DNA of 25,147 nt from a virus (Duplodnaviria > Caudoviricetes). A program made the translations under genes and the position numbers. Positions within the stretch are counted from its first letter, which is position 1; every line of letters begins with the position of its first letter. The stretch lies in IMG/VR virus record IMGVR_UViG_3300034101_002498, positions 1-25,147 of that record. One strand, 5' to 3'. The notes under the pieces were generated by a model that was not told the origin of the DNA, made no database searches, and saw only the letters and a program-made list of their open reading frames with translations. Positions 2 through 24,312 of the stretch are shown here, in pieces.

Positions 2-532
2 TCGTTTTGAAGGTCGAGGGATAGACCAGTGAACGCACCCGCACCGGACCACAATCTTTCCGTGTTTCTTCTCAAGGCGTTCCCCAGTCCAACCATCGAG
101 GATATGGACCTGTCGGGTTCCAGCGGTGCCAATCTCGTCGTGGTGAGCCCCTTTATGCCGCGCTTTTAACCCTGCAAAGGAGCACTCTAGCTCTGGTCCT
201 AACTCATTCGGGAGAATCGCAACCGCCCAGTTTTGGGTATCGCTTTCAGGCTTCCAGACAAACCCGCGCTTAGGTCCATCAACTGGGTTCCGAGCCCCAC
301 ATTTGACTTCTAAGGGCTCTTTGTTTTCAACGAGTACAATCGGGCTAGGAGTTGGTGTCGGTGCTACTGTCGGGGCAACTAGGGGCTCTATCGTCGGCGT
401 GGCACTCGGTGCAACCGATGGCTCGGCAGAATTCTTGGAGTGACGTTGAATCGCACTTAAGACCTGTTCGGCCACTTTCAGATGCTCTGCCGAACAAGCG
501 GTTAGAAGTATCAGGGGAATCAGTTTTTTCAT
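2..532 (-). CDS. Putative lipoprotein, 3'-partial (runs off window edge); not in supplied ORF track
   Basis: Manual translation from ATG at 532 gives MKKLIPLILLTAC-SAEHLKVAEQ...; basic N-terminus, hydrophobic core and lipobox LTA|C, then a Pro/Thr-rich linker (EPSVAPSATPTIEPLVAPTVAPTPTPSP) and a Cys-containing domain (KCGARNPVDGPKRGFVWKPESD...VVRCGCVHWSIPRPSKR). Open for 177 codons to the window end; AGAGG lies upstream. Confidence 0.8.
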   Translation of the reverse strand, partial: MKKLIPLILLTACSAEHLKVAEQVLSAIQRHSKNSAEPSVAPSATPTIEPLVAPTVAPTPTPSPIVLVENKEPLEVKCGARNPVDGPKRGFVWKPESDTQNWAVAILPNELGPELECSFAGLKARHKGAHHDEIGTAGTRQVHILDGWTGERLEKKHGKIVVRCGCVHWSIPRPSKR

Positions 533-550
533 CGCTTTTGCCTCTAAAAC

Positions 551-636
551 CCCTCCCCTCACCTCTCGGGGGACCCTCTCCACCCACTTTTTGACTAAAT
601 CCGAGCCAGAAAGGAGCGGGAGAGGGTAGGGGAGAG
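551..636 (-). promoter_or_regulatory. Structured intergenic RNA element (long hairpin / three-way junction) upstream of the lipoprotein gene
   Basis: Minus-strand CUCUCCCCU (636-628) pairs with AGGGGAGGG (559-551); ACCCUCUCC (627-619) pairs with GGAGAGGGU (581-573); inner stem UUUCUGGCU/AGUCAAAAA; short GAGA-loop hairpin. Most imperfections are G-U wobbles on the minus strand only. Confidence 0.5.
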
Positions 637-1645: not shown

Positions 1646-2899
1646 TTATGCCCCCTCTAATGCAGCAATTCTAGCCTCCAATGATTCAACCGTTAAGCTG
1701 AGTTCTTTGACGGCTTGAACAAGCACGGGAATCAAACGGCTGTAATCCATCGCTAGTTTTGTGAGGGTAGGATCTTCTCCTTGAATAACTTCTTTTGTGT
1801 CGTAAACTGCTTCGGGAATAATGCTAATTACTTCTTGAGCTATAAATCCAAGCTGCGGTGTGGCTGGGTCGGCTTTATATTTGAACGAGCAAGGTTCTAG
1901 TTGCGTTATTTCATTCAACCCATAATGAAGAGGGGACACATCTTCTTTTAACCGAATATCCGAAGTTTGGGTTCCAACAATCGTCCCTCCTGTTGTTCCT
2001 ATATTGGATTCAGAAGTTGATGTCCTCAAAACATCCGTGTTGTCGTGCCATAAACTATTAAATTGCCCGTCTTCGGCTTGAAGTCTTACCGCTCCACATG
2101 CATCGGTAATTCCTGAGTGCTTGTAAGCAAGGATCTGAGCCCATCGCGTATTCGAGCCGACTTTGCCTTGTGCGACCACATCCGCAAACTCAGTATCGGC
2201 AATGCTATCGCTTGCTACTTTTAACCGATGAGATCCGCTCGGCTTGTAAAAGTACTCTTGAGTAATGGCAGGCAAGCCATCATCAGTATTTGTCCCGACG
2301 AGAAGATTGCCACCGGACGTAACCCGAGCCCGTTCTATTGCCGAAGTAAAAAGGGTAATCGCACTCGCATCTGAACCATAAAGGCTAAGGGTACCTGTCC
2401 CGCGATGGACTAATTCAGAATTTGCGTTCGCGCCGCCACCACGAATGAAGCGACACCCATAATCTGAATAGGTGGTATCTCCGATAAGATCGACGTAAGC
2501 ATTTCCGGAGCCTGTTCGCCCTTCCCCGATGTTTATAGAGCAATCTTGCGTAGTCGTCGCCGCAGATCCGATGGTAATACCTGCTGCGGCATTGGTTACG
2601 TTTAATGATCCAGTTGAAAGAGAAGTGTTAATCTGGCCAAGCGTTGCATACTGGTCCGATGCTGTGGCACTCCCAACGCCCGTATGCTTAAACCCCGCCA
2701 TAGGCTGATTGCCCGTAGCCGCCTTAGAGCCGTTTGCCTTGACACAATCGGTCAACGCTGTGGCCACGTCATTCATCTCGGCATCGTGCTCTGTTGCGGA
2801 GATTATAGGGTTAGCTTGCGCTGCTCTTTGAGTCCAGAGTGTGCTTCCGCTCAAAGTGCCGTTAGTTCTTGTGTAGTTTCCGCTGCCGTCAAAGCCCAT
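1646..2899 (-). CDS. Tail fibre/spike with C-terminal intramolecular chaperone (Peptidase S74 domain)
   Basis: N-terminal virion-anchor-like segment (MGFDGSGNYTR...EMNDVATALTDCV...MAGFKHTGVG); C-terminal TSDIRLKEDV...GFIAQEV...DYSRLIPVLVQAVKEL plus coiled coil; AGGAG RBS. Confidence 0.9.
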   Translation of the reverse strand: MGFDGSGNYTRTNGTLSGSTLWTQRAAQANPIISATEHDAEMNDVATALTDCVKANGSKAATGNQPMAGFKHTGVGSATASDQYATLGQINTSLSTGSLNVTNAAAGITIGSAATTTQDCSINIGEGRTGSGNAYVDLIGDTTYSDYGCRFIRGGGANANSELVHRGTGTLSLYGSDASAITLFTSAIERARVTSGGNLLVGTNTDDGLPAITQEYFYKPSGSHRLKVASDSIADTEFADVVAQGKVGSNTRWAQILAYKHSGITDACGAVRLQAEDGQFNSLWHDNTDVLRTSTSESNIGTTGGTIVGTQTSDIRLKEDVSPLHYGLNEITQLEPCSFKYKADPATPQLGFIAQEVISIIPEAVYDTKEVIQGEDPTLTKLAMDYSRLIPVLVQAVKELSLTVESLEARIAALEGA

Positions 2900-7036: not shown

Positions 7037-8128
7037 CTAGCTCCTCATTCTGATTTGTGATTCTCTGCTGCCGCCGCGCTCTTCTTTTTCCATAATCTTG
7101 GTGGCTTCTTCAGGGCTTAACCCGAGTCCCGCAATTCCCCTTGACGCGTCGGGTTGACGAATCAAATATTGAAACCGCTCGTTTCTAAGCAACGCCACAC
7201 GATCTGCATATTGTTGAGCCTCTTCGCCTTGTCCTGCTCTTTGCATTGCCGCAATAGCCAATCGGTTCGCCCTTTCTAGGTCTCCCTGTCTTTCGGCTGA
7301 CTTTATTTTTTCTTTTTCAAGTTTTGTCAGAAGTTTGTTGTTTTGGATATCTGACAGTATTCGCTTTTGCTCAAGTTTGTAGGTTTTCTCCCACTGCCTT
7401 TCTGCCGTTCCAATCTTGCGCTCTTCCTGTCCAATCTTGCGCTCTTCCTGAGCCGCACCAACGGCCTGTAGCGTGCGATTAAACTCAGCGGTAGTAGCAC
7501 CCTCGGCGAATTGTCGCGCTTGCTGGCGGGCTTGTGCTGCCTCTACTGCGCGTGATTCTGCAAGGGCTTGCTGTTCGCCTCGATATGCTTGCGAGTCTGG
7601 TGAGATACCTCTATCGGCAAGGTATTGCTCTCGCTGCTGTTGTTCTCGCGCTTGCCGCTCTGCTGCACCAACGGTGATATCGCCTAGCTCCTGCTCGTAC
7701 CGTTGTTGAAACATCTGAGCTAATTCTTGTTGAGTCGGAAGACGGTATCCACCTGTAAGGGCTTGCTGAGTCTGCTCCGCGGTTGGAGTTTGTGTGTATG
7801 GAGCTGGAGCGGTAATAGGGTTTCGCGGTTGTTGCGGTGCCGTCGCAGCAGGAGGCGGGTTTACGGGCTCTGACATTGGAATCCGTATTTGCGCCTGTGG
7901 CACTAACTTGCCGGAGGGGTCCCTATATAGACCAGGTGAGACTCTTGTATAACCCGATGGAGCCTTAAACGTAGATTGAGCTGATGCCGCTTGAGGAACT
8001 GTCGTCGTTGCCGGAGGATTGAACGCTTCCTTTGCTTGCTCATTCGGCTGCCCCATCCTATTGCCTGGATAGTTTGGGTCGCGTGCTGGCTGTGTTGATG
8101 TTCCTGGCATTGTTTTTCTAACGGCCAT
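7037..8128 (-). CDS. Probable DNA-ejection / pilot-like virion protein
   Basis: 363 aa, Pro/Gln-rich N-terminus, LADRGISPDSQAY motif followed by coiled coil, a pattern common in podovirus injection proteins; directly downstream of the gp10-like gene. Confidence 0.55.
   Translation of the reverse strand: MAVRKTMPGTSTQPARDPNYPGNRMGQPNEQAKEAFNPPATTTVPQAASAQSTFKAPSGYTRVSPGLYRDPSGKLVPQAQIRIPMSEPVNPPPAATAPQQPRNPITAPAPYTQTPTAEQTQQALTGGYRLPTQQELAQMFQQRYEQELGDITVGAAERQAREQQQREQYLADRGISPDSQAYRGEQQALAESRAVEAAQARQQARQFAEGATTAEFNRTLQAVGAAQEERKIGQEERKIGTAERQWEKTYKLEQKRILSDIQNNKLLTKLEKEKIKSAERQGDLERANRLAIAAMQRAGQGEEAQQYADRVALLRNERFQYLIRQPDASRGIAGLGLSPEEATKIMEKEERGGSRESQIRMRS
7409..7450. repeat. Perfect 21-nt tandem duplication encoding QEERKIG x2
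   Basis: TCCAATCTTGCGCTCTTCCTG at 7409-7429 and 7430-7450. Confidence 0.9.
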
Positions 8129-9630
8129 TAGAGTAATCCTCCGGTCTCAAATGTGATTGCTGCTGCGTAAAACTCGTACGGTCCTGTGGTGCTTTCAAAA
8201 GCAAAACTGATACTTGCGGCCCGCCCAAAGGCTGTAAGCGAATAAACATCTTCTCCCCGAATCTTGGGAGCACTCCAAAGAGCTTGATTCCAAAGTCCGG
8301 CGTTCCAGTTAAACCCACCTTCATTATTTTGAGTCGTATAAGTAAATGGGGCTTCCTTAAAATCGACATCCGTTCCAATTGAGAACGTTTCGCCTGGTGC
8401 GCTTTTTACATGTGGACGAATCATCGTAAACCGCTTTATTCGCGCTCGGTCTTTGAAATAATTATAGGCGATATGCACTTCGCTTTTTATTGGGGCTCCG
8501 TTATCGAGCGTCCCTGTTTCGGCTTTAAATACCCGCCCATTCGTCCCGCCGAAATAAATGCTATCGCCAAACGAAGCCCATACTTTTGCTTGCATTCCAG
8601 TGTATTGAGCCCATGCCCCTCGCTCAGGGTTAAGCACGAATTGTTGCGCAACATTAGAAACAGGGATATTGAAATAAACCGCCTTGCCGCCGCTGTGGTA
8701 TGCCGCGTTCCATCCCGTAGAGTTGCCGTAATCTTGAGCTGCACTTAAAAAAGCACTGTTTATGTTTGAGGTAATACTGGCGTAAGAAGAGTTGTTCCCG
8801 CCTGATAAAAGAGCTGATAGGGGGGTAATTCCAGCCTTATGAATGATAAGAAGATCGGAGCCTAATCCAAGATATGCCCTGCGCCCCGCAACTGGTTCAG
8901 GAAGAAAAAACCGTCCAGCGATAGACCAGTTGTTCGCATTTTCTGGGTCTGTTCCAGAGTATAGAAGTACTTCGCCTTCACTCGATACGATTACAAAATA
9001 ATCTTGTAATCCGACTCCCGTGTCTCGGGACCACGAGCTTACAAACTCAACTGTGCCACCGCGTTGCAATAGGTAGCTATAATCAATTCGGTGCATCTGC
9101 CCTTGGAACGCTGCCGTGTTACTATTCCAAACATAGCTGGTGTTCTTTTCAACGACAAAAAGGCGGCTTTTGTACTGGCAACCTTGTATCAAGTTTGACG
9201 GCGTAAGGTTATGCACTTGCCCGTTAAAACTAGGCTGACTCCACGTTGTCCCGTCATACATTTGGGGCGTATCGGTACCATTAAAGAACAGTATCCGGGT
9301 GCCAATTAAAACATGCTGCCAAGTGCTATTTGTGATTGCTGGACCTAACGCAACCGAGCTTGAAGATGTAACGTCGTAAAATCGAGTCCCTGCACACGCA
9401 ATTAGCTTGCTGCTGCCATTCGCTAGAGGTAACTCAACAAGCGTATTCACATCGCTGGTGTTACCAGTGATGAGGCAATGAGGCGTATATCCTCGGCGCG
9501 TCCTTACAAAACCATCATCCGGAAACGCATTAATCATTTTAATGGCGTAGGTAGGGTCCATCTGATCAAGAGGGTCGCGGGTGTTCCATCCGCCTGTTGG
9601 TGCTGATATGGTTGCGGTTGTGCTTCTCAT
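8128..9630 (-). CDS. Tail/DNA stabilisation protein (P22 gp10-like, tail tubular protein B analogue)
   Basis: 500 aa beta-rich; N-terminal APTGGWNTRDPL...MINAFP...VRTRRGY and C-terminal WNAGLWNQALW motifs; downstream of the adaptor. Confidence 0.8.
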   Translation of the reverse strand: MRSTTATISAPTGGWNTRDPLDQMDPTYAIKMINAFPDDGFVRTRRGYTPHCLITGNTSDVNTLVELPLANGSSKLIACAGTRFYDVTSSSSVALGPAITNSTWQHVLIGTRILFFNGTDTPQMYDGTTWSQPSFNGQVHNLTPSNLIQGCQYKSRLFVVEKNTSYVWNSNTAAFQGQMHRIDYSYLLQRGGTVEFVSSWSRDTGVGLQDYFVIVSSEGEVLLYSGTDPENANNWSIAGRFFLPEPVAGRRAYLGLGSDLLIIHKAGITPLSALLSGGNNSSYASITSNINSAFLSAAQDYGNSTGWNAAYHSGGKAVYFNIPVSNVAQQFVLNPERGAWAQYTGMQAKVWASFGDSIYFGGTNGRVFKAETGTLDNGAPIKSEVHIAYNYFKDRARIKRFTMIRPHVKSAPGETFSIGTDVDFKEAPFTYTTQNNEGGFNWNAGLWNQALWSAPKIRGEDVYSLTAFGRAASISFAFESTTGPYEFYAAAITFETGGLL

Positions 9631-10601
9631 TTACGCTCCCACGGTGGTACATAGACTGGGGATTCGTAAATTCTAGGTTGTTCTGTTTGCCACTTCTGAA
9701 CATTCGGGTCGTTGTACAGAATATTCGCCGCTTCTTGGTACGTTTCAGGAGTCCAGTTGATATTGACCGTTCCAGCGCGTTCTTTTACTAGATTATTCCG
9801 TAGGGCAATATCCATCATTTGTAACTTCTTTTCTTGAGGAAGAGCTAAATATTCCTTCCCAAAGTTTTCCACATTGGTGGCAAACTCAAAGATATCTTGA
9901 CTTTGTAAATCTTGGTTTTTACCGCTATTTACGAACTTATTATTTACCCACTGGCCTTTGTCGTTATAACCAACAAAGTCTTTAGGCAAAGTCTTATCTT
10001 GCGCTTTTAGCGCTGCGTCTTTGGTATCGACCCATTCGGGTTTTAAGCCAGTAAACCCGTAGTATTTTTCAAGACGGTTCCATCGCTCTTTTTCGTAGTT
10101 TTTTGGTCGGGGTGGTCGAATAGTCCCAATTACCGCTCCCACAAGAGCCCCAATCCCGCCACCTATTGCTGTTCCTTTTGGTCCAAAAAAGCTTCCAATT
10201 GAAGCACCCGTTTGAGCCCCAGAAACCGCCGAGCGGGTTGCTCCCCCCCGCTCTACAATATCTCTCGATAAATTGTATCCGCCCAACGCTGTGCCGACTA
10301 CTGGCGCGACATAGCCGCCCGCCGAACCTGCTGTTTGTGCACCCGCTTGCCCCGCTCCTTGAGTTCCAGCTTGCGTTGCGACTTGAGTTCCGCTTTGAGC
10401 AAGAGCCTCCCCTGCGCGTCTCTTTACCTCTCCAAGTACAATCTCACCGCCAATGTTTGCCGCTTCTTTCCCAATAATTTCAGCAGAAGTAGGCGTATTC
10501 GTCTGAGTAATAATCTGCGGTGCCCCTGATGGGCTAGTGGTTGCCTGTTGCCTTCTCTTTTGTTCGCGCCTAAACCACTCGGCGTAATCAATGTACGGCA
10601 T
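9627..10601 (-). CDS. Glycine-zipper-containing virion protein (possible membrane-penetrating ejection protein)
   Basis: GAQTGASIGSFFGPKGTAIGGGIGALVGAVIG (GxxxG repeats); ATGA overlap with the gp10-like gene. Confidence 0.55.
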   Translation of the reverse strand: MPYIDYAEWFRREQKRRQQATTSPSGAPQIITQTNTPTSAEIIGKEAANIGGEIVLGEVKRRAGEALAQSGTQVATQAGTQGAGQAGAQTAGSAGGYVAPVVGTALGGYNLSRDIVERGGATRSAVSGAQTGASIGSFFGPKGTAIGGGIGALVGAVIGTIRPPRPKNYEKERWNRLEKYYGFTGLKPEWVDTKDAALKAQDKTLPKDFVGYNDKGQWVNNKFVNSGKNQDLQSQDIFEFATNVENFGKEYLALPQEKKLQMMDIALRNNLVKERAGTVNINWTPETYQEAANILYNDPNVQKWQTEQPRIYESPVYVPPWERK

Positions 10602-10604
10602 CGG

Positions 10605-12626
10605 TTAGGCTCCTGAATCCCACAACCACATTGAATGATAAATCCCCATCGAGGCTTGTATAACTGGTTTTACTGGACTTAGCAGTTTTGGCAGAAAAAC
10701 ATTCGCATTGGTGCCATTTTGCAAGCCTAATTGATAATCGTTATTGTTGCCCCATCCCCATATAGAACCATCTTTCTTTATTGCTAAGGTTCCAGTTGTA
10801 CCATGGCAATCGCCTAAACTCGCCCAATCGGTTGCAGTGCCTATTTGAGTCAAGCTTGTCACAATTAAATTACCAGAAGGACCGCTAGTTCCTACACCTT
10901 GGCCCGCCCCACATTGTCCTTGTTGATTGATTCCACATCCCCACATCGTGCCATCGGACTTTATGGCAATAGTGAAATTGTTTCCTGCGTGGATATCAAC
11001 CCAAGTATTTCCAGTTCCAATTTGAGTTGGAGTTGCTCCATACGAATTACTTGTCCCTGTTAATTGGCCATAGTCTCCATTCCCCCATCCCCATAGGGTT
11101 CCATCCGTTTTTAAGGCAATAATATGGTAAATACCACTTATAGCTTTTTTCCAATTTGTTTCAGTCCCAACTTGTGTTATCGCTCCCAACCATCCGCTTA
11201 AACCTGCGGGTGGATAGCCCCAATGGTACATTGTGCCATCATCTTTTAGTGCAACTGTCCAGTTAGTTGTTGAGACACTTTTCCAATTTGTTGCAGTCCC
11301 AATTTGTGCAAAATACCAAGGAGTCGCTGTTGAAGTTCCGGCCCATAAATTATTTAAATTCCCAGCAACCCATCCGGCGCCCCAAAGAGTTCCGTTTTCT
11401 TTTATTGCATGGGCAAAATTATCACCAAACCAGGCCCAATGATTAACATGTTTCCATGTGCTGCCAGCCTCAATCGCAATAGGAGGATGTATTGGAGTTC
11501 CTTGAGCTGGCCAACTAGTGGACGAGCCATCGCCCATTGAATATTGTTGAGATCCCATCGCCCATAACGTCTTGTTTGTTTTCAACAAGAACGTGATTCG
11601 GTGCCCTGCGAAAACATTCGCCCATTCATTAACTGCGCTAAATGAGGCTGGTTGGCTAATGTATCCACCACCAGGGGCAATCTCGGTAGCGCCGTTATTG
11701 CCTAGACCAAAAGGGATTAGTGTTGTCGGCACAGTAGGCACAACCGGAGTTACAGGGGTACTACTTACACCACCGATAAACCCAACGTCTCGGCATCCGG
11801 TATCAAGAAACCCGCAGTTATAGCGGAATATATTACTAGTCCTACCACCGTTGCGTTCGGCTAAATCGTTCCTCAACCCGATGTTAAACTCGGCCTCTAG
11901 ATCTTGGTACTCAAGCCCCTTCATCCGGTAAAACCGGGCTAAAATGCCTTTCATCAGGATTGAGGGTTCAATTAAAGGCTCGTCAGTATCAGCGATAAAA
12001 CGCTCATAAAGGACGTTCGCTTTACGAGTCCAAGTGATAGTCCCATCGGCTCCATTGTTGGCGATTGTAGGGGCAGAACTGCCCGCTGTGCCGCTTGTGT
12101 TCGCAGTCCAATACTCACCATCGGAGAACACCCACATGCCCGCTGTGACGCTCATAGAGGCCTCCCATTCTCGGGGCTTTATCCATGTCTTCGAGCGGTA
12201 AAAGAGGCTGATTGTTTCATTACCCACCGGAGTAGGGTGCATCGCAACGGCTCTTGCGCCTTTGCTGTTTTGCGATACGCGAAATGCAAACTTAATCCCG
12301 GCGTTACCCGTTTGTGTAAGTGCCTGCCATTCCCGAGGCGTTATTGGGCCTCGTATCGGGGTCATATCGCCCGTGTACCATGCCGTTGAATCGAGCAATT
12401 CAGCGCAATCAGCGGGAAGCGTCTGGTTAGTTCCAGCAACAAGGGAGAGGGAAGAGAGCTTAGTAAGCTGTGGCCAATCGAACATCCGAACGGCTTCAAT
12501 GCCTCGTTCGTTGGCAATCGCTAGCAACTGTCTAGTTGTCGCGTCCGTATTGTTGATTATGGATGTCGGGCGAGGAAAGCCACCAAAATCACAGGCATCT
12601 TGGAGAACAGAGAGAAGAGTCGCCAC
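10605..12626 (-). CDS. Head-tail adaptor (tail tubular protein A / P22 gp4-like) fused to a Trp-rich insert and a C-terminal RCC1/BLIP-II-like beta-propeller
   Basis: N-terminal MATLLSVLQDAC...QLLAIANERG...DWPQL...GPITPREWQAL...FIADTDEPLIE...KGLEY resembles adaptors of this phage group; Pro/Thr linker; six [LI]K[TDSEK][DN][GK][TS][LMI][WY]xxG repeats plus a terminal MGIYHS strand. GTG start. Confidence 0.8.
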   Translation of the reverse strand: MATLLSVLQDACDFGGFPRPTSIINNTDATTRQLLAIANERGIEAVRMFDWPQLTKLSSLSLVAGTNQTLPADCAELLDSTAWYTGDMTPIRGPITPREWQALTQTGNAGIKFAFRVSQNSKGARAVAMHPTPVGNETISLFYRSKTWIKPREWEASMSVTAGMWVFSDGEYWTANTSGTAGSSAPTIANNGADGTITWTRKANVLYERFIADTDEPLIEPSILMKGILARFYRMKGLEYQDLEAEFNIGLRNDLAERNGGRTSNIFRYNCGFLDTGCRDVGFIGGVSSTPVTPVVPTVPTTLIPFGLGNNGATEIAPGGGYISQPASFSAVNEWANVFAGHRITFLLKTNKTLWAMGSQQYSMGDGSSTSWPAQGTPIHPPIAIEAGSTWKHVNHWAWFGDNFAHAIKENGTLWGAGWVAGNLNNLWAGTSTATPWYFAQIGTATNWKSVSTTNWTVALKDDGTMYHWGYPPAGLSGWLGAITQVGTETNWKKAISGIYHIIALKTDGTLWGWGNGDYGQLTGTSNSYGATPTQIGTGNTWVDIHAGNNFTIAIKSDGTMWGCGINQQGQCGAGQGVGTSGPSGNLIVTSLTQIGTATDWASLGDCHGTTGTLAIKKDGSIWGWGNNNDYQLGLQNGTNANVFLPKLLSPVKPVIQASMGIYHSMWLWDSGA

Positions 12627-13902: not shown

Positions 13903-14880
13903 TTAAGGTTTAGCGTGTCCCTGAAGGAACAAGTTGCGAGCGGTCATGTTACCAGCCCATGCAAGGTAACGGACAGTTGCATCTTGGTTGAACGAATCAC
14001 GAGCTTTCAAAGGCACGAAGTTACGCTTCGATGCAGTTTTGAAGAACAGGTGGTTCATGTTCAGGAAGTGAGTTGTGGTTGCATTCGCAATACCCTGATA
14101 CCCACCGCCGTTAACAACTGGAACGCCCATGAACTCAAGGCCAGTGCCAATCGTATCCACGGTGCCTTCACCCACTTTCATAATGCGCTGGATGGTCTGC
14201 AAGGACTCTCTGTAAAGTCTAAAATGCGTTCCACCTGCGTATACGAGGGTAGGTTTTTCAGCGTTACGGGTTAGTCCGTCGAAACAGATTCCGTAAAACT
14301 GCTGAATATTGGCATTGGTGAGGGAAGCAAACCCAAGATCGGAAGCATCAAATATCTGATTCCGCGCCCAGGTATAGGTTCCTCGATCAATTCCACCAAC
14401 CGAACCAGAAGTGTTTGCAGAAGGGTTAAGGAGTCCCAAACCACCAATCTGCTTTCCACCGTCGGCTGTCCCATCGGATTCAACGTCCGTTGCCATCGAG
14501 TTCATCATCGTGTACTCAGCAGCTTCGATCCTCTTTTCAAGGAGGTCAAATACCTGCTCAGGTCCAGTGTTCTGAACGTCGCTTTCAAGTCCGTTAATTA
14601 CAACGGCAACCGCTACCTGCTTCCAGTTAAACCGGAAAGCCGTAAACTGTTCGGTCTGAGAAGTGTTAAGAACCTCAGAACCAGCATAACGCTGATAAGA
14701 GGGGTTTTCTGCAAACAGCTGCTCTTCGAGGATGGATTCCCCACCCGAAACTAGCTTCTGGTTGTCTTTCATAAAACGAAGCAAAGGGATGTTTTTCGAT
14801 ATCCCATCTGCCATCTTTTTCGATCTCTTGTACATCGTTACGGTGAGCATTTCACCGATAGATGCGTTAGGCGTTGCCAT
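13903..14880 (-). CDS. Major capsid protein (HK97 fold)
   Basis: 325 aa; RSKKMAD...SGGESI...YAGSEVL...WKQVAVAVVINGLE...QN.G.EQVFDLLEKRI...DGTADGGKQIGGL...VGGIDR...NQDA...WAGNMT motifs; follows the scaffold. Confidence 0.9.
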   Translation of the reverse strand: MATPNASIGEMLTVTMYKRSKKMADGISKNIPLLRFMKDNQKLVSGGESILEEQLFAENPSYQRYAGSEVLNTSQTEQFTAFRFNWKQVAVAVVINGLESDVQNTGPEQVFDLLEKRIEAAEYTMMNSMATDVESDGTADGGKQIGGLGLLNPSANTSGSVGGIDRGTYTWARNQIFDASDLGFASLTNANIQQFYGICFDGLTRNAEKPTLVYAGGTHFRLYRESLQTIQRIMKVGEGTVDTIGTGLEFMGVPVVNGGGYQGIANATTTHFLNMNHLFFKTASKRNFVPLKARDSFNQDATVRYLAWAGNMTARNLFLQGHAKP

Positions 14881-15862: not shown

Positions 15863-16272
15863 CGGCGTAATCCTTCGGTTATATCGTTAGGGTCGACTTC
15901 TTCGCAGTCTCTTAACTCCTGCGGAACGTTCGCGTTTATGTAGTCCTTATTGCCTTTCATCGCAGCGGTATACCAGGCTTTTATTTCTTCGATATCGTCT
16001 TTTAATCCGTCTAATTTCCTATTTTGATGTTTGCCAACCATATCCCAGGTGCGTTTATCGTCAATCTCGACGTACCCTTTTTCTTTCGTTACACGACGAA
16101 ACGCGCTCTTGCTGTCAAAGGTTTCACCAGTTGCGGGGTGCCATGTAGGGTTAATGGTATCTTGATGAACGGCAGGGGCAGAGGAGACAATCACAGTCGG
16201 AACTTTCTCGACAAGCTTTTGCGTTGCCGAATCGTATACCCACTTGCCGCGCACCCCTTGAATATCAATCAT
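15859..16272 (-). CDS. Conserved small phage protein of the portal-scaffold interval
   Basis: PAVHQDTINPTWHPATGETFDSKSAFRRVTKEKGYVEI pattern; ATGA overlaps on both sides. Confidence 0.65.
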   Translation of the reverse strand: MIDIQGVRGKWVYDSATQKLVEKVPTVIVSSAPAVHQDTINPTWHPATGETFDSKSAFRRVTKEKGYVEIDDKRTWDMVGKHQNRKLDGLKDDIEEIKAWYTAAMKGNKDYINANVPQELRDCEEVDPNDITEGLRR

Positions 16273-16730
16273 AACTCTTGCATTAAATAAGTTAAAAGAA
16301 GCTGTAATTCCTCGTATTCTTCCGCTTCCTTTCGTTTTTTCTCTTCTTGATACAGTCTAACGGCTTTTTCGTATTCCTGCTTTATATATTCTTCTAGTCG
16401 AATCTTAGCTTGATACGCTTCTGCTGCCTTATTTAGCTCATTTGCTTTTATTTGCAGCTCTAACAACTGGAAACTAATGGCGATTTGTTCTTCAGCTAAT
16501 CGCAAAGCTTCTTGTTGTTTCTCTAACGACTGGCGATCACTTTGAGCTTGTTGCGCCGCGTCTATAGCGGAAACAGTTTGCTGCAACTGCTTCTTAATCT
16601 TCTTTACAACGCGACGCGCTTTTCGTGGTTCGCCTTTTTTACGCTCCTCAATTATCCATATCTCTTGGTATATTTTCGATATGGGAGGAACTGGAGGTTC
16701 CCCAAAGTTTTGCAAAAGCGTTAAAAGCAT
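16269..16730 (-). CDS. Hypothetical coiled-coil protein
   Basis: 153 aa, MLLTLL N-terminus, charged coiled coil, EEYEELQLLL C-terminus; tightly coupled to neighbours. Confidence 0.65.
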   Translation of the reverse strand: MLLTLLQNFGEPPVPPISKIYQEIWIIEERKKGEPRKARRVVKKIKKQLQQTVSAIDAAQQAQSDRQSLEKQQEALRLAEEQIAISFQLLELQIKANELNKAAEAYQAKIRLEEYIKQEYEKAVRLYQEEKKRKEAEEYEELQLLLTYLMQEL

Positions 16731-16734
16731 TTTT

Positions 16735-16902
16735 TTAGCTCAAAAGCGATCTTAATTTCTGAAGCGTTGCCGCCGTTGTTTCGATTTCCGCTTCAATCCT
16801 AACGATCTGCTGGATATCTCCCAGCGCGGTAGCTGTGCCTAGTTGGGAGTTTAGATAACTTAATCGGTTTTCGCATAAGAATACCAATTCTTCTATATTC
16901 AT
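16735..16902 (-). CDS. 55-aa helical-hairpin protein; not in supplied ORF track
   Basis: MNIEELVFLCENRLSYLNSQLGTATALGDIQQIVRIEAEIETTAATLQKLRSLLS*; fills the gap between flanking genes; same AAGGGTAAAAA leader as the upstream 537-aa gene. Confidence 0.8.
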   Translation of the reverse strand: MNIEELVFLCENRLSYLNSQLGTATALGDIQQIVRIEAEIETTAATLQKLRSLLS

Positions 16903-16913
16903 CTTTTTACCCT

Positions 16914-18527
16914 TTAAACTAGCGCAATTAGCTCCTGAGCTGTCGTCGCTGCATGCGATTGTAATAGCAGAACATCATAAACATCAGTTCCGTCTATCGC
17001 CGCATATGCCGCCATCCGATTACCCTCTACTGCGGTCCCAGTTTGCACTAAATCGGTCGGCGTGTAGGGAGAAAGAACCCTGTTTTTTACATCGAATCTA
17101 AATATCTGATTCAAGGCAGATGCTGCGTAACGGTTCATATAAAACATGCGGCCTTCGTTTCCAAAAGGAGAATAGCATCCGCCAGTTCCTTGTGTTATAG
17201 AGACTGATCCATCATAAGTGATTGCACCCGTCCACGTTCCAGTAATGCTCCCTGCAATATCAAGAACATCAAGGGTTGCTGCTCCACCTCGGAAGAAATA
17301 GCAGAAACTATGCCGCGCGTTTCTGGCTGGATCCGGCTGGATACCGAACGACGGTGCCCACAATCCACCTGTTGCGTTTGCCGCTGGTGCTGCGCCAAAA
17401 TACGTAGTACTCCACGATCCTGCCGTGATGTTGTTGGTGCCGTTGTTTATAGTCGCATCGGTGTAGTTGTAGGTGTAAACCGTTGTCGTTGCCGATGATC
17501 GGAGGAGGAGGAGGTTAGGCAATTCGATGACGTATTTTGCACTAGACGACGGCTGTGTAGTCCATGCCGTCCCGAGAGTGTAAACTGCGGAAGGTCCAGC
17601 GGTATGCGAAGCTATTATCCTTCTTTGACCTACGGCTGCCGGAGTTACCGTATCCTGTACGATTCTAATCTGAAAATTTCTAAATTCGTTCGCTGCAACC
17701 ACCGCATCTCCGAGAGTCGCTTGCCCTGTGAGGCTCGAGGCTCCTGATGCTGTTGCGGTAAGAGCTTTTCTGGCCACGAGGTTCGTGTCATAGGTAAAGG
17801 CACCCTTAATCATCCCTTCGCCTGGCACACAATCAAAAGGCGTGTACTGCTCATCAAGGACCATCATTGAGGAGTCTGTGGCGATTGTGGCGGGAAGCCC
17901 CGTAGTGCTTAAACCCGTTGAAAGCGTGTTAGCTGCAACCTCAAAGGATCTCCAAATATTTGCGGCAACTGTTCCAGCTCCCAACATAAACACTCGACCC
18001 GCAAGGACCTCGTATCGTGCGCCGCTTGCTGGTGTAAAGCTGAACGCATTATCAACGCTTATACTCGGCGTTGTTCCCGCGCTATTACCTACGATATATC
18101 GCTCTTCGGTTTTTCCTGCGGTCGTATCAATTATTCGGAGCTTGTATCCGTACTCTCCCGAGCCTCCTCGGTTTGCAAGCATATTTACGCCAACCGCTGT
18201 AGCTAATGCGGTACTTAGGGTCACACGAGTAGTCGTGGCTCCGGCTGCGATTGTTCCAACTGCGCCAAAACTAGGAACAAAAGACACCGCCGCACCCGAT
18301 CCAAAAGTTCCCGCAAGTGCTGGCGATTGGACAAGAGTCCATGCCTTAGTTACAATGTTATAGCGGTTTAAAACCGTGTTGCTTACTAGTTGATATACAA
18401 AAGGATTTCTCGACAAATCCGATCGTAAATCTGATGCAATACACACACCCGCTGCATGTGCGTTTGGCGAAGGGGTTACCTGAGCCCATATGTTGCGATC
18501 GATCACTTTTTTAAATGTATTTGCCAT
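16914..18527 (-). CDS. Beta-rich accessory structural protein (Kelch/propeller-like repeats with two duplicated beta-sandwich-like inserts)
   Basis: Thr/Ala/Gly-rich; blade-like segments (LNRYNIVTKAW, WRSFEVAANTL, YFFRGGAATLDVLDIA...TW, IFRFDVKNRVL); two similar segments [LI]RI...RxI...A[FW]xxxPxSxAxY. Confidence 0.55.
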   Translation of the reverse strand: MANTFKKVIDRNIWAQVTPSPNAHAAGVCIASDLRSDLSRNPFVYQLVSNTVLNRYNIVTKAWTLVQSPALAGTFGSGAAVSFVPSFGAVGTIAAGATTTRVTLSTALATAVGVNMLANRGGSGEYGYKLRIIDTTAGKTEERYIVGNSAGTTPSISVDNAFSFTPASGARYEVLAGRVFMLGAGTVAANIWRSFEVAANTLSTGLSTTGLPATIATDSSMMVLDEQYTPFDCVPGEGMIKGAFTYDTNLVARKALTATASGASSLTGQATLGDAVVAANEFRNFQIRIVQDTVTPAAVGQRRIIASHTAGPSAVYTLGTAWTTQPSSSAKYVIELPNLLLLRSSATTTVYTYNYTDATINNGTNNITAGSWSTTYFGAAPAANATGGLWAPSFGIQPDPARNARHSFCYFFRGGAATLDVLDIAGSITGTWTGAITYDGSVSITQGTGGCYSPFGNEGRMFYMNRYAASALNQIFRFDVKNRVLSPYTPTDLVQTGTAVEGNRMAAYAAIDGTDVYDVLLLQSHAATTAQELIALV

Positions 18528-18536
18528 TTTTTACCC

Positions 18537-19097
18537 TTAAGAGATTCTAGATCTTACGCAATCAGCCCATGCGGAGAGATTCTGGCCTATCTGCCCAATT
18601 CTGCCCTGTATCCCATCAATCGTTGAAATGTTTGAAACGGTTGAAACGGTTGTAACGGCTGAAACGGTTGAAACGGTTGAAACGGTTGAAACGGTTGTAA
18701 CGGCTGTAACGGTTCCGGATTCGACTACAACTGTGGAGCGTTGCCGCTGGAGAGACTTATCGTACCCTCTAGGCGAATCGAGGAGCTGAAGAACCAAATT
18801 CATCAAATTACGAACGTTTTCAACTCTTAAAGTCAACGGGTCGGTTTCGGAGATTGTAACTGGCAATGAACTTGCAGCCGTTACTGGAATTGGAGTAGTT
18901 GTTGAAACGTCGGCAATTTTGACATTTAATGGGGTAGCGGTATCTACCGATACAGGCATGGGGTTAGAACTTGATACATCAACCGCAGATCCATCAACTC
19001 CAACCCCAATCTTAACGCGCTGGTGCAATACGCCGCCAATATCATCTGCTGCGACGGTCGCCCCCGTTCCAGGTGTGTATCCAACATTATCGGCCAT
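18537..19097 (-). CDS. Accessory structural/fibre-like protein with (TVS)n repeat
   Basis: 186 aa; MADNVGYTPGTGATVAADDIGG..QRVK N-terminus, SSSNPMPV / TTPIPV / SSLPV spacer repeats, TV[ST] tract; TAATG coupling to portal. Confidence 0.6.
   Translation of the reverse strand: MADNVGYTPGTGATVAADDIGGVLHQRVKIGVGVDGSAVDVSSSNPMPVSVDTATPLNVKIADVSTTTPIPVTAASSLPVTISETDPLTLRVENVRNLMNLVLQLLDSPRGYDKSLQRQRSTVVVESGTVTAVTTVSTVSTVSTVSAVTTVSTVSNISTIDGIQGRIGQIGQNLSAWADCVRSRIS
18633..18713. repeat. 9-bp tandem repeat x9 (TG[AT]AACGG[TC])
   Basis: Nine consecutive units encoding TVTAVTTVSTVSTVSTVSAVTTVSTVS on the minus strand. Confidence 0.95.
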
Positions 19098-21463
19098 TAG
19101 CTAATCCCTCTTATTTGTGCCATCACTTGCTCTACTTCGGGCAACAGTTCCTCTGCATCCTCAATGATGACCATTTTATTACCCATCTCATCAACGCCGA
19201 TTCTGCCTACGCGTTTTGTCTTTTTAGGGGCAATGGTTTTTAGCTGTGCAGCCTTATCAAGTTGCATTTTTAATTGTTCGCGTACATGCCGCAAGTCCTC
19301 GGCCCGTCGCTCTCGTTCGTCAGCTAGCGCGATTTCTTGCCGTTTTAAATCCTCTTCTACTAGTTGTTTTTGAGCTTTTAACTGCAATTCCGCTTCTGCA
19401 AATGCTTTTTTCTGTTCTAGCTCAATGAATCGGGTATCAACTTGAGGTTGCTGTTGTTGAGCTTGCATCTGCAACTCGGCATCAGCTCTTTGTTGTTCAG
19501 CGGCTTGCGCTTGCATTGCCTGTTCAGCCTGTTGAGCTTGCATTTGACGTTGCTGCTCTTCAATGGCTTTTTGCTCCTGTCGAGCTTTTTCCATTTCGCC
19601 CTCTACTTCGGTGAGAGCTTTTTCAAGTTTGCCCCTTACCTCACGGCCCGCCTCAAACTGGCTTGTGGTGTAAAGAGTTATCTCGTTAATGACTGGCATC
19701 AACTGAGGGATTGCCTGAGCGTGTGGAAGCAATACGTTGAATAAATTGCCTAGTGCATTAGTTAGGTCTATTGCAGATTGTTTTGCGGCTTCTTGGTCAG
19801 CAAAAGTAGTCGAATCTGTCTCAATATCAATGCGATAATCGCTCTGAGTATCGTTTCGTAGTAGGTCAATTACACCGCCTAAATACTCTTCTATTTCAGG
19901 GTCATTAGTAACGCCTGCCATCTTAATCATGGTCTGAGGCTGGAAGTGGTTTTTTACGATTTGCGCCATTAGTGCAACCACATCGCGGCAGAACTTGGCA
20001 ACTTTCCGCTGTCTTTCAGAGATACGACTCATCGCGTACTGAGTCTTGATTTGTTGCGCCCCTAAAGTCTCAGAAGCACGAGAAGTACCGCGCACAATGT
20101 CCGAAATACCCGTAATATCGTAAATCTGCTGCTTTTCTTGCTCCATCGCGTCGTGCAGGACTCGTAGAATCGCTGCATGGTCGGCCATCGAGAGTACTTC
20201 CAAGGCGCTTTTTACGCCGCCCTGTTGGAGGTACATCTGAAAGTTAGATAGCTGAATGTGTGTGCCGTTTGGCTTTCTTAATATATTATCTAGCTCTGGG
20301 TTTTCGCTTCCCGAGATAGAAACAACCTTAATGTATCTCGCGATATCTTGGGCTTTCTGGCAGAGCTGATTAAGGGTCTCTTGCTGGTCTTGGTAGAAAC
20401 AGATATCGGGTCTTGGGATAAGTCCCGTGGTGAGCGTCGCAAAGAGGGGCTCAGGGCAGGGGAAGAACTCGTCAAAGGTAAGATAAGGCTCGTCCTCTTT
20501 TAAGGTCTCATTGTGGCCTTCTGCTAACCAATAGACCTTGTTAGAGTCCTTACACCAAACCTCGTACACGCAGATACGGTTCTTATTTATTTCCTTCTCG
20601 CCTTCTTCCTGCGACGCTTCCTCCGAGTTGCGATAAGTAGTGTAAGCATCTTCCCCGAATTTCTCCTTAAACTCTTTCTTAGTTATATGGGTCTTTCGGG
20701 CTACTTTTCGAACTTCCGCCCATGTTCTTGCTGGTTCAAACAGCAGATCCGACCAATGGATGTAATCAACTACGCATTTCTCATCTAGGAGCGTTTCAAC
20801 GGGCTCCCCGTCAACGTAGTACCCTTCGTCGTCCTGTTTAACAAGGCTGGGGTCTACAGGTTGGCCCATCTCATCAACGTACTGCTCAGGGGCTTCACCC
20901 ATTTTGGGAGCTTCTTGGCCTTCCATTTCGCCGCCCATCTCCATACCCATCTCAGGCATAGGAGGCATCCCTTCCATCGGAGGCATACCAGGCATTTGGC
21001 CCATCATCGGGGCAGGGGCTACCTCTTGGACTCGAATCTTAGGAGTCTCTACGCCTATCTTTGGCTCGTAACGTACCCATAGGGCACCTTGGCCTACAAC
21101 GAGGTAATCATCAACGGCTCTCGATACGGCAGCATCAAACCCCGACACTTCCACCTGGAAACGTGTGCAACGCTCTAGAATCTGGCTTCCTAAACGCGCT
21201 GTAACGTCCCGAGTAGGGTATCGCCTGAATATCTCTGGCTTAGGAGGTTGAGCGTAAAGAGCGGGTTTTAGAGTATTAACAATCGACCAAAATACGTTTA
21301 ATTGTGCAGGTCTTTCGCAGTATTGACTAAAATCTTCACCGGCATAAAGCTGCTCACTGCGCCTTGCCATCTCGTAGTAACGGTCACGCGCCTTTTTCCA
21401 CCGTCGTATCTCGGTGTGCAGGGGATGCTCTTTGTCTTTGTCGTCGCTTTCGTACTCAGCCAT
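19097..21463 (-). CDS. Portal protein (P22-like, long C-terminal coiled-coil barrel)
   Basis: 788 aa after terminase; NVFWSIVNTLKPALYAQPPKP, GQGALWVRY, ARTWAEV, FFPCPEPL, IYDITGISDIVRG...ETLGAQQIK and YRIDIETDST motifs; Gln/Ala-rich C-terminus. Confidence 0.9.
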   Translation of the reverse strand: MAEYESDDKDKEHPLHTEIRRWKKARDRYYEMARRSEQLYAGEDFSQYCERPAQLNVFWSIVNTLKPALYAQPPKPEIFRRYPTRDVTARLGSQILERCTRFQVEVSGFDAAVSRAVDDYLVVGQGALWVRYEPKIGVETPKIRVQEVAPAPMMGQMPGMPPMEGMPPMPEMGMEMGGEMEGQEAPKMGEAPEQYVDEMGQPVDPSLVKQDDEGYYVDGEPVETLLDEKCVVDYIHWSDLLFEPARTWAEVRKVARKTHITKKEFKEKFGEDAYTTYRNSEEASQEEGEKEINKNRICVYEVWCKDSNKVYWLAEGHNETLKEDEPYLTFDEFFPCPEPLFATLTTGLIPRPDICFYQDQQETLNQLCQKAQDIARYIKVVSISGSENPELDNILRKPNGTHIQLSNFQMYLQQGGVKSALEVLSMADHAAILRVLHDAMEQEKQQIYDITGISDIVRGTSRASETLGAQQIKTQYAMSRISERQRKVAKFCRDVVALMAQIVKNHFQPQTMIKMAGVTNDPEIEEYLGGVIDLLRNDTQSDYRIDIETDSTTFADQEAAKQSAIDLTNALGNLFNVLLPHAQAIPQLMPVINEITLYTTSQFEAGREVRGKLEKALTEVEGEMEKARQEQKAIEEQQRQMQAQQAEQAMQAQAAEQQRADAELQMQAQQQQPQVDTRFIELEQKKAFAEAELQLKAQKQLVEEDLKRQEIALADERERRAEDLRHVREQLKMQLDKAAQLKTIAPKKTKRVGRIGVDEMGNKMVIIEDAEELLPEVEQVMAQIRGIS

Positions 21464-24126: not shown

Positions 24127-24312
24127 AGAGCCCCATAAATGGCCTGTAGTGCAATGGTGATGGATACAGGATAGCACAGGTATCGGGTATCGGCGCTAGT
24201 GCCTATCAGGAGGTAGAGGGGCTTTAGAGAGGGAGGTGGATGAGACTCTTTGGGGTTTGATGGGGGGTGGGGTCCCGGGGGGGGCAGTTGTTAAGGGATG
24301 CTTAAGAGCTGG

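What the first reader, a model, noticed from the sequence alone, without database searches (positions are those of the whole stretch)
10605..11770. Head-tail adaptor fused in-frame to an RCC1/BLIP-II-like beta-propeller
Seen: the adaptor-like region ends near ...RDVGFIGG (~aa 287). The frame continues without a stop through a linker VSSTPVTPVVPTVPTT into ~370 aa of RCC1-type repeats (LKTNKTLWAMG, IKENGTLWGAG, LKDDGTMYHWG, LKTDGTLWGWG, IKSDGTMWGCG, IKKDGSIWGWG, closing MGIYHS), consistent with seven blades. This part looks more AT-rich by eye. Established: P22 gp4 and T7 gp11 adaptors are ~170-200 aa dodecamers, and RCC1/BLIP-II propellers are protein-binding scaffolds. Inference: a ring of up to 12 flexibly tethered propellers at the neck acting as a multivalent adhesin or enzyme-binding collar. 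I do not know this architecture from characterised phages; it is the strongest novelty candidate in the window.
Basis: partly seen in the sequence, partly recalled or inferred. Interest (0 to 1): 0.78.

Follow-up and report, generated by a model that had tools for sequence, protein, structure and literature searches.

The report
Swappable RCC1 propeller on phage neck
A lake phage fuses its head-to-tail connector gene to a propeller-shaped domain that is swapped wholesale between near-identical phages and also occurs in a baseplate gene of an unrelated T4-like phage, so it is likely an interchangeable host-gripping part that would ring the virus neck.

Summary
The fusion is real. One 673-aa ORF (10605-12626, minus strand) has no stop at the junction, contigs of three other lake runs bridge it, and 35 protein clusters carry it. 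Residues 1-265 are predicted to fold like the Pa223/SU10 podophage adaptor (Z 14.7/14.3) with a CBM5/12-like insert; residues 303-673 form a 28-strand RCC1 propeller.

Relatives 96-98% identical upstream lose homology at the linker and regain it at the stop codon. Eight propeller types share only 29-42% with this one, while adaptors reach 99% and the tail fibre stays 97-100% identical in three relatives. Two types (76%, up to 69%) also occupy one exchangeable slot in a gp7-like baseplate wedge gene of a T4-like lake phage. Amino-acid changes are relatively frequent in the propeller and favour one predicted face in two of three types.

The propeller is optional: 1 of the 150 nearest adaptor clusters has it. 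Best reading: a multivalent accessory adhesin at the neck (0.55). Virion display, ligand and host are untested. Nine literature searches found no description.

The parts
10605..12626 (-). Whole ORF, 673 aa: adaptor, tail, linker, RCC1 propeller
   Evidence: junction bridged by contigs of 3 of 4 runs laid; 33 fused clusters
11832..12626 (-). Adaptor core, aa 1-265 (helix bundle plus beta domain), SU10/Pa223 type
   Evidence: phrog_6013 E 2e-31; model mean pLDDT 80.6; VIA Z 14.7, rmsd 2.6, 186 aligned to 9nwi_A; Z 14.3, rmsd 2.6, 185 aligned to 7z47_A
12012..12179 (-). CBM5/12-like insert, aa about 150-205, inside the adaptor
   Evidence: profile hit to cyanophage Pam1 tailspike 7eea, E 3e-5; VIA Z 8.8, rmsd 2.4, 56 aligned, and chitin-enzyme modules at Z 5-6; absent from about 235-aa relatives
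11766..11831 (-). Remodelled C-terminal tail, aa 266-287, with a Cys pair; inferred portal-embracing arm
   Evidence: aligns with the tail of unfused relatives, F273 and G282 kept; Cys-pair motif in 35 of 35 fused, 0 of 25 unfused; role inferred from SU10 and A4 papers
11721..11765 (-). Pro/Thr/Val linker, aa 288-302; the upstream swap point (11728) lies at its end
   Evidence: pLDDT under 50; blastn break at gene nt 899 in L001, L002, L003
10605..11720 (-). Seven-bladed RCC1-type propeller, aa 303-673: the exchangeable cassette; homology to relatives resumes at the stop codon (10607)
   Evidence: 76% identical to a propeller in a T4-like wedge gene
13903..14880 (-). Major capsid protein (context)
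   Evidence: phrog_9953
19097..21463 (-). Portal, the inferred partner of the adaptor tail (context)
   Evidence: phrog_12082
8128..9630 (-). 500-aa protein, inferred nozzle/tail hub from position and size, not tested (PHROG label 'amidase')
   Evidence: phrog_5107; inference
1646..2899 (-). Tail fibre with S74 chaperone, nearly invariant while the propeller is swapped (context)
   Evidence: 0 amino-acid changes vs G001; 97-98% in G006, G007

Best explanation
This gene encodes a predicted podophage head-to-tail adaptor fused to an RCC1 propeller that is exchanged as a cassette between near-identical phages, and the propeller likely works as an accessory adhesin that would be displayed in 12 (perhaps 24) tethered copies around the neck. 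Steps: (1) predicted: aa 1-265 form the usual ring between portal and nozzle. (2) Inferred from SU10 and A4: the tail at aa 266-287 grips the portal outside the capsid, so the linker would carry each propeller outward just under the head. (3) Inferred: each propeller binds a host-surface ligand, most likely a protein, weakly through one face; many copies give avid, reversible capture before the conserved fibre and nozzle commit. (4) Shown as a pattern, inferred as a process: homologous recombination between the linker and the next gene swaps whole propellers, probably by the phage's RecT-like protein, from a pool shared with a T4-like phage, while point changes alter the loops. (5) Shown: the module is optional.
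For: Adaptor fold. Clean swap ends in 3 relatives; contigs of run X3 show other alleles beside this one. 24 of 34 fused relatives have adaptors at least 95% identical but propellers 34-41% identical; 8 types at a 60% cut. Fibre unchanged or 97-98% in G001, G006, G007, which carry another propeller type. Five type-2 allele pairs: pN/pS 0.66-1.31 in the propeller vs 0.01-0.04 in the adaptor. A-B turns vary more than opposite-face loops in the window type (9 of 35 vs 3 of 47, p 0.024) and type 2 (9 of 35 vs 2 of 47, p 0.007). The window type (76% aa; 77% nt over 1011 nt) and type 1 (up to 69%) fill the same slot of a T4-like wedge gene whose flanks are mostly 84-100% identical. RCC1 proteins were found in W70 virions by mass spectrometry (PMC11370258, passages). 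A complete relative encodes RecT-like and Gam-like proteins. The adaptor family already carries CBM-like inserts, up to three in tandem.
Against: No virion, binding or host data. Type 1 shows no face bias (8 of 35 vs 11 of 47, p 1.0; a narrower test gave p 0.013 by entropy, 0.24 by counts), and its three pairs have pN/pS 0.20-0.25. No ratio is shown to exceed 1, pairs are not independent, and faces were assigned by motif, with the binding face recalled from BLIP-II/UVR8. A position beside the head is far from the tail tip; an adaptor Ig-like domain in R4C was read as structural for that reason (PMC10276861, passages). The five T4-like contigs with the window type are 99.7-100% identical in the slot, so about one lineage. 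The propellers in the T4-like gene are likewise not shown on a virion.
Confidence: 0.55

Rival explanations
1. The propeller is displayed on the virion but binds something other than the host receptor: particles, extracellular polymers, grazer or bystander surfaces, helping the virion persist near hosts.
For: The neck position suits general sticking; the module is optional; similar propellers occur in hundreds of viral contigs, often as free genes.
Against: Two types shared between two phage lineages in host-facing structural genes, plus a shared fibre segment (53% over 107 aa), fit a common host better; rapid type turnover fits a changing target.
Confidence: 0.18
2. The propeller is a structural brace that packs against the capsid or fibres and stabilises the neck.
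For: Precedent: the R4C adaptor Ig-like domain contacts the capsid (PMC10276861). The adaptor C-terminus ends beside the portal (PMC9509320).
Against: The capsid protein is identical between the window and G001 while the propeller falls to 34%; the same types occur in an unrelated baseplate gene.
Confidence: 0.1
3. The propeller is an enzyme- or protein-binding inhibitor (BLIP-II-like) acting on a host enzyme or defence protein, at the cell surface or after cleavage at the linker.
For: BLIP-II is a seven-bladed propeller that binds beta-lactamases very tightly (PMC6121496, passages); loop variation also fits a protein arms race.
Against: Blades are four-stranded whereas BLIP-II blades are three-stranded; the domain is attached to outer structural proteins in two virion types; no cleavage signal was identified.
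Confidence: 0.1
4. The propeller is a tolerated passenger under relaxed selection, with no useful function.
For: Optional, and gained or lost at least three times on the adaptor tree; pN/pS near 1 in some pairs.
Against: All 35 fused clusters keep RCC1 repeats in frame; strands vary at only 5-17% of sites; deeper pairs show pN/pS 0.20-0.25; swaps respect domain ends.
Confidence: 0.07

Closest known systems
Pseudomonas phage Pa223 gp63 (PDB 9nwi) and Kuravirus SU10 gp11 (7z47; Pfam PF24175)
   Same: Helix bundle plus beta domain over aa 1-264, Z 14.7 and 14.3; position among head and tail genes; C-terminal tail.
   Different: 12-19% identity; they are 207-227 aa in the deposited chains, and the alignments do not cover the CBM-like insert, linker or propeller.
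PHROG 6013 adaptors (Myxococcus Mx8/Mx9, Rhizobium RHph_N2, Stenotrophomonas BUCT555, Bradyrhizobium ppBjS10J-1)
   Same: Same family; capsid protein 37-41% identical to those of Mx8, Mx9, BUCT555 and ppBjS10J-1.
   Different: 22-27% identity; among the 150 nearest 50%-clusters only this lineage has a C-terminal extension.
Phage RCC1 proteins (phrog_4219; W70_237-239, GAP32 gp001, S-SRM01, BUCT-ZZ01)
   Same: RCC1 repeats; reported in virions (PMC11370258, PMC5259590; passages); encoded beside baseplate and fibre genes in two freshwater cyanophages.
   Different: Separate genes, not adaptor fusions; the W70 paper suspects a role in packing DNA, whereas this fusion points to an outer location.
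Roseophage R4C adaptor with Ig-like attachment domain
   Same: An accessory domain fused to a dodecameric adaptor by a flexible loop (PMC10276861, passages).
   Different: Siphophage adaptor, N-terminal Ig fold, read as structural; the passages seen mention no swapping.
Tail fibres and spikes with constant anchor and exchangeable tip (from established knowledge)
   Same: Conserved N-terminus, recombination-swapped C-terminus, sharing across phage families.
   Different: Here the anchor is a core neck ring and the tip a monomeric propeller, not a trimer.
BLIP-II and eukaryotic RCC1/HERC/UVR8 propellers
   Same: Seven blades; best fold matches RCC1, HERC and RPGR domains, E about 1e-23.
   Different: 16-22% identity; a shared fold shows no Ran, chromatin or beta-lactamase binding.

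Membership tests
SU10/T7-type podophage adaptor | Helix bundle plus beta (fibre-dock) domain | tested here: met
   Predicted model; VIA Z 14.7/14.3 with 185-186 aligned; Foldseek E 6e-7 to 9nwi_A
SU10/T7-type podophage adaptor | Pfam PF24175 over cut-off | tested here: inconclusive
   No hit for aa 1-287 in the local scan; listed in the precomputed annotation of P0028; 52-57% relatives P0017, P0021 pass
SU10/T7-type podophage adaptor | Gene among portal, capsid and tail genes | tested here: met
   terminase, portal, capsid, this gene, 500-aa gene, fibre, endolysin on one strand
SU10/T7-type podophage adaptor | C-terminal arm embracing the portal | tested here: inconclusive
   Tail aligns with unfused tails but is remodelled; pLDDT under 50
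SU10/T7-type podophage adaptor | Dodecameric ring in the virion | not testable with these tools
   needs cryo-EM; no complex prediction was run
P22 gp4-type adaptor | Helical adaptor lacking the fibre-dock domain | tested here: not met
   Model has the beta domain; gp4 aligns over 102 residues, Z 9.0; SU10 paper says P22 and Sf6 lack it
RCC1-like domain | RCC1 repeats over Pfam cut-off | tested here: met
   PF00415 and PF13540 over cut-off; PF25390 129 vs 150 for this allele, 222 for P0029
RCC1-like domain | Seven four-stranded blades | tested here: met
   28 strands in the model; TM-score to target 0.74-0.85 for the best RCC1/HERC/RPGR rows
BLIP-II | Three-stranded blades | tested here: not met
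   four per blade in the model vs three (PMC6121496)
BLIP-II | Inhibits class A beta-lactamase | not testable with these tools
   needs an assay
CBM5/12 | Fold and profile match of the insert | tested here: inconclusive
   Fold match Z 8.8 to 7eea, 5-6 to chitin enzymes; no Pfam hit for the window insert; P0151 passes PF02839; binding untested
Diversity-generating retroelement target | Reverse transcriptase and template repeat in the genome | tested here: not met
   0 of 5 records with PF00078, two of them at least 90% complete; no template copy in G001
Phage receptor-binding protein | Virion display and host-specific binding | not testable with these tools
   only indirect signs

The most novel reading that the evidence does not exclude
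Viral RCC1 propellers, routinely annotated as chromosome-condensation regulators, are an unrecognised class of interchangeable receptor-binding modules: one library of types is shared between a 12- or 24-valent podophage neck collar and a T4-like baseplate wedge, tracking the same variable host-surface target.
Probability: 0.4. Interest if true: 0.82.

Novelty: new variant of a known kind. Interest (0 to 1): 0.66.

Why it matters
RCC1-type proteins are common in aquatic viruses (about 2000 stored stretches matched the patterns) and have been seen in virions, but their role is unsettled; one paper suspects DNA packing. A fusion to the end of an outer neck protein, and the same types in a baseplate gene, argue for an outward-facing role and make the question testable with natural allele pairs. 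It would also turn the adaptor, usually treated as invariant plumbing, into a display site for host-range variation, and shared types could link unrelated uncultured phages to a common host.

Tried and rejected
Assembly or frameshift artefact: rejected. Programmed frameshift at the junction: no test beyond reading the aligned DNA, which shows synonymous variation there; not excluded. Diversity-generating retroelement: 8 of 9 non-synonymous changes in one pair involve A, but only 12 of 25 in the next pair, with no RT and no template. Capture of an adjacent free RCC1 gene: an RCC1 profile hit only fused ORFs in loci L001-L088 and 0 of 4 and 0 of 2 unfused records (all incomplete). Host: not found; no adaptor relative in bacterial genomes, best propeller match 32% in a Flavobacteriaceae MAG, cultured relatives too distant, database names of the unfused cluster conflict (cyanobacterium, Aquiluna). 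Direction of transfer: unresolved; propeller GC 44-45% lies between 37% (T4-like) and 48% (podophage); the propeller tree has long branches and omitted the G009 copy. RNA libraries: contigs of 4 of 4 runs carry the adaptor joined to a type-2 propeller and fragments of the window type, but no silent control was laid, so transcription is not shown. Sequence search of PDB with the adaptor alone found nothing. ESM Atlas gave no usable hit. Earlier scan notes: none. PMC12906663 was a false lead (strain names). BLIP-II was not among the listed fold matches, which excludes nothing. Two BFVD proteins of 629 and 654 aa with long alignments could not be fetched, so their N-termini are unchecked. Whether the T4-like copy keeps the same binding face as the window allele was not quantified.

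Full report
Observation. The window is a 25-kb fragment of a podophage-like genome (estimated 54% complete) with terminase, portal, capsid, fibre and endolysin genes on the minus strand. The ORF 10605..12626 gives 673 aa with no internal stop. Residues 3-263 match phrog_6013 and residues 307-666 RCC1 repeats. The 18 DNA runs listed as holding the stretch are lake or freshwater metagenomes; two may be its source. Of four other runs laid, contigs of X3, X4 and X10 bridge the junction without gaps, and X5 has no listed piece across it. These are contigs, not raw reads. All 33 longer homologues and 2 of 27 near-length ones carry RCC1 repeats; the other 25 are unfused. Many of these clusters are near-copies (17 distinct of 25 type-1 propellers).

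Anatomy. A model of aa 1-287 (mean pLDDT 80.6) matches podophage adaptors: Pa223 (Z 14.7, rmsd 2.6, 186 aligned), SU10 (14.3), A4 (14.0), and P22 gp4 more weakly (9.0, 102 aligned) (Foldseek agrees). Residues 150-205 are an insert like the module in the Pam1 tailspike; it is common in the family and absent from shorter members. The full-length model (pTM 0.56) has 28 strands in aa 303-670, low confidence at 259-299 and also at 79-126, and matches RCC1/HERC/RPGR domains. The last 22 adaptor residues align with the tail of unfused relatives but are remodelled, with a Cys pair in 35 of 35 fused and 0 of 25 unfused proteins. In SU10 and A4 the C-terminal arm hooks the adaptor to the portal (PMC9509320, PMC12002296; passages). 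Pa223 stacks two adaptor rings (bioRxiv 2025.06.11.659172; passages), so 12 or 24 copies are possible. Twelve propellers of an assumed 45-50 A need a ring radius of 87-97 A; that the tether reaches this far is my inference.

The propeller is a cassette. Against L001, L002 and L003, DNA identity is 96-98% for 4.4-6.9 kb up to gene nucleotide 899, then only short repeat matches, then homology again from the stop codon. The window's propeller is 29-42% identical to the 34 others, while 24 of those adaptors are at least 95% identical; a 60% cut gives eight types. Run X3 holds contigs of other alleles beside this one. Between the window and the complete relative G001, capsid and fibre have no amino-acid change; the fibre is 97-98% in G006 and G007 but diverges in G002-G004. 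G001 encodes RecT-like and Gam-like proteins, a plausible but untested swapping route.

It is optional and rare. Of 78 viral loci (best 80 of 115 stretches kept), 7 are fused (6 distinct), 1 is cut off and 70 are unfused. Of the 150 best of 4941 family representatives, 1 has a C-terminal extension over 60 aa and 2 have N-terminal ones. A wider profile search of long proteins returned only 30 already known clusters, with candidates capped at 8000. A tree of 35 adaptor cores (14 of 35 fused, 19 close unfused, 2 outgroups) needs three changes; fused P0060 sits among unfused adaptors at 100/100, and one fused clade is rejected (p-AU 6e-58). L008 (fused) and L009 (unfused) share their flanks.

Variation within types. 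For five pairs among four type-2 alleles, pN/pS is 0.66-1.31 in the propeller and 0.01-0.04 in the adaptor; for three type-1 pairs it is 0.20-0.25 against 0.06-0.36. A-B turns vary more than opposite-face loops in the window type and type 2 (p 0.024, 0.007; five alleles each) but not in type 1 (p 1.0; 13 alleles). Faces were assigned by motif, and which face binds is recalled from BLIP-II and UVR8. This fits diversifying selection on a binding surface but does not prove it.

The same types in a T4-like phage. It lies within a run of propellers in an ORF upstream of a baseplate wedge gene. A sister contig, G009, has a hub, wedge, RCC1-bearing wedge, wedge block in the T4 gp5-gp25-gp6-gp7-gp8 order (gene numbers are my inference from the PHROG labels). 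The two ORFs are 84-100% identical in most 50-aa windows, apart from an insertion region and one slot (35-56%), which holds the window type in G008 and type 1 (61-69% to the adaptor-fused copies) in G009. Among 8 loci of this lineage, 5 near-identical ones carry the window type, 1 type 1, 1 another type and 1 is cut off. The 157-kb member encodes Gp23, three more RCC1 proteins behind a shared N-terminus, and a fibre segment 53% identical to the window's. A shared host is inferred, not shown.

Mechanism. Most likely the adaptor ring carries tethered propellers that act as an accessory, multivalent adhesin, refreshed by cassette exchange from a pool shared across phage families (0.55). Shown: fusion, cassette pattern, optional presence, sharing. 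Predicted: folds. Inferred: display, geometry, ligand, recombination route. Rivals: binding of non-host surfaces (0.18), structural brace (0.10), enzyme inhibitor (0.10), passenger (0.07).

Comparison with what is known. It works like a fibre with an exchangeable tip. It is a member of the phrog_6013 adaptors by sequence, SU10/Pa223-like by predicted fold, and an RCC1-like domain; it fails the tested features of P22 gp4, BLIP-II and retroelement targets. Known already: RCC1 proteins in virions of W70 (three, by mass spectrometry, suspected of packing DNA; PMC11370258) and GAP32 (PMC5259590), RCC1 genes beside tail genes in S-SRM01 and BUCT-ZZ01, and an Ig-like domain on the R4C adaptor (PMC10276861); all seen as passages or record annotation, no supplements read. 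Nine searches, judged from listings and abstract starts, showed no adaptor-RCC1 fusion or shared cassette; the library lacks most subscription papers. The fusions are already in databases under generic RCC1 names.

Verdict. Real, rare within its family, and more informative than first noted. New variant of a known kind; interest 0.66.

Noticed in passing
window 21547-24177 (-): The large terminase carries an intein-like insertion with a LAGLIDADG domain.
   Followed up: no
window about 10100-10540, inside the 324-aa gene: A second variable stretch: homology to L002-L005 breaks here, and the gene is 324-395 aa in relatives.
   Followed up: no
window 16269-18527 vs L001 140-2357: The genes upstream of the 137-aa gene are replaced by unrelated ORFs in L001, and L008-L010 carry extra phrog_10356-like structural genes just before the adaptor.
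   Followed up: partly
L009 5278-5898 and L091 516-1361: A broken copy of the window-type adaptor with a stop at codon 100, 99% identical over 965 nt in two assemblies; in L009 it precedes an intact, unfused adaptor. Remnant or chimera.
   Followed up: partly
window about 11790-11820 (-): Two cysteines seven residues apart in the tail of all 35 fused and none of 25 unfused adaptors; possibly a disulfide that anchors the loaded tail. Unexplained.
   Followed up: partly
P0151, P0170, P0193, P0196, P0214, P0128, P0230: Other adaptors carry two or three tandem CBM-like inserts, and two have N-terminal extensions of 351 and 1005 aa with no family match.
   Followed up: partly
window 8128-9630 (-): phrog_5107 is labelled amidase, but position and size suggest the nozzle; likely a wrong label.
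   Followed up: no
L221 14265-18924; L225 8175-8942; L223 11374-12360 (G010): The T4-like phage has three tandem 510-aa RCC1 genes sharing an N-terminus with other ORFs nearby, plus a trypsin-like protease and a GH5 enzyme.
   Followed up: partly
window 2-583 (-): ORF with a lipoprotein-like signal and Pro-rich linker, no Pfam, PHROG or Atlas match; a possible host clue.
   Followed up: partly
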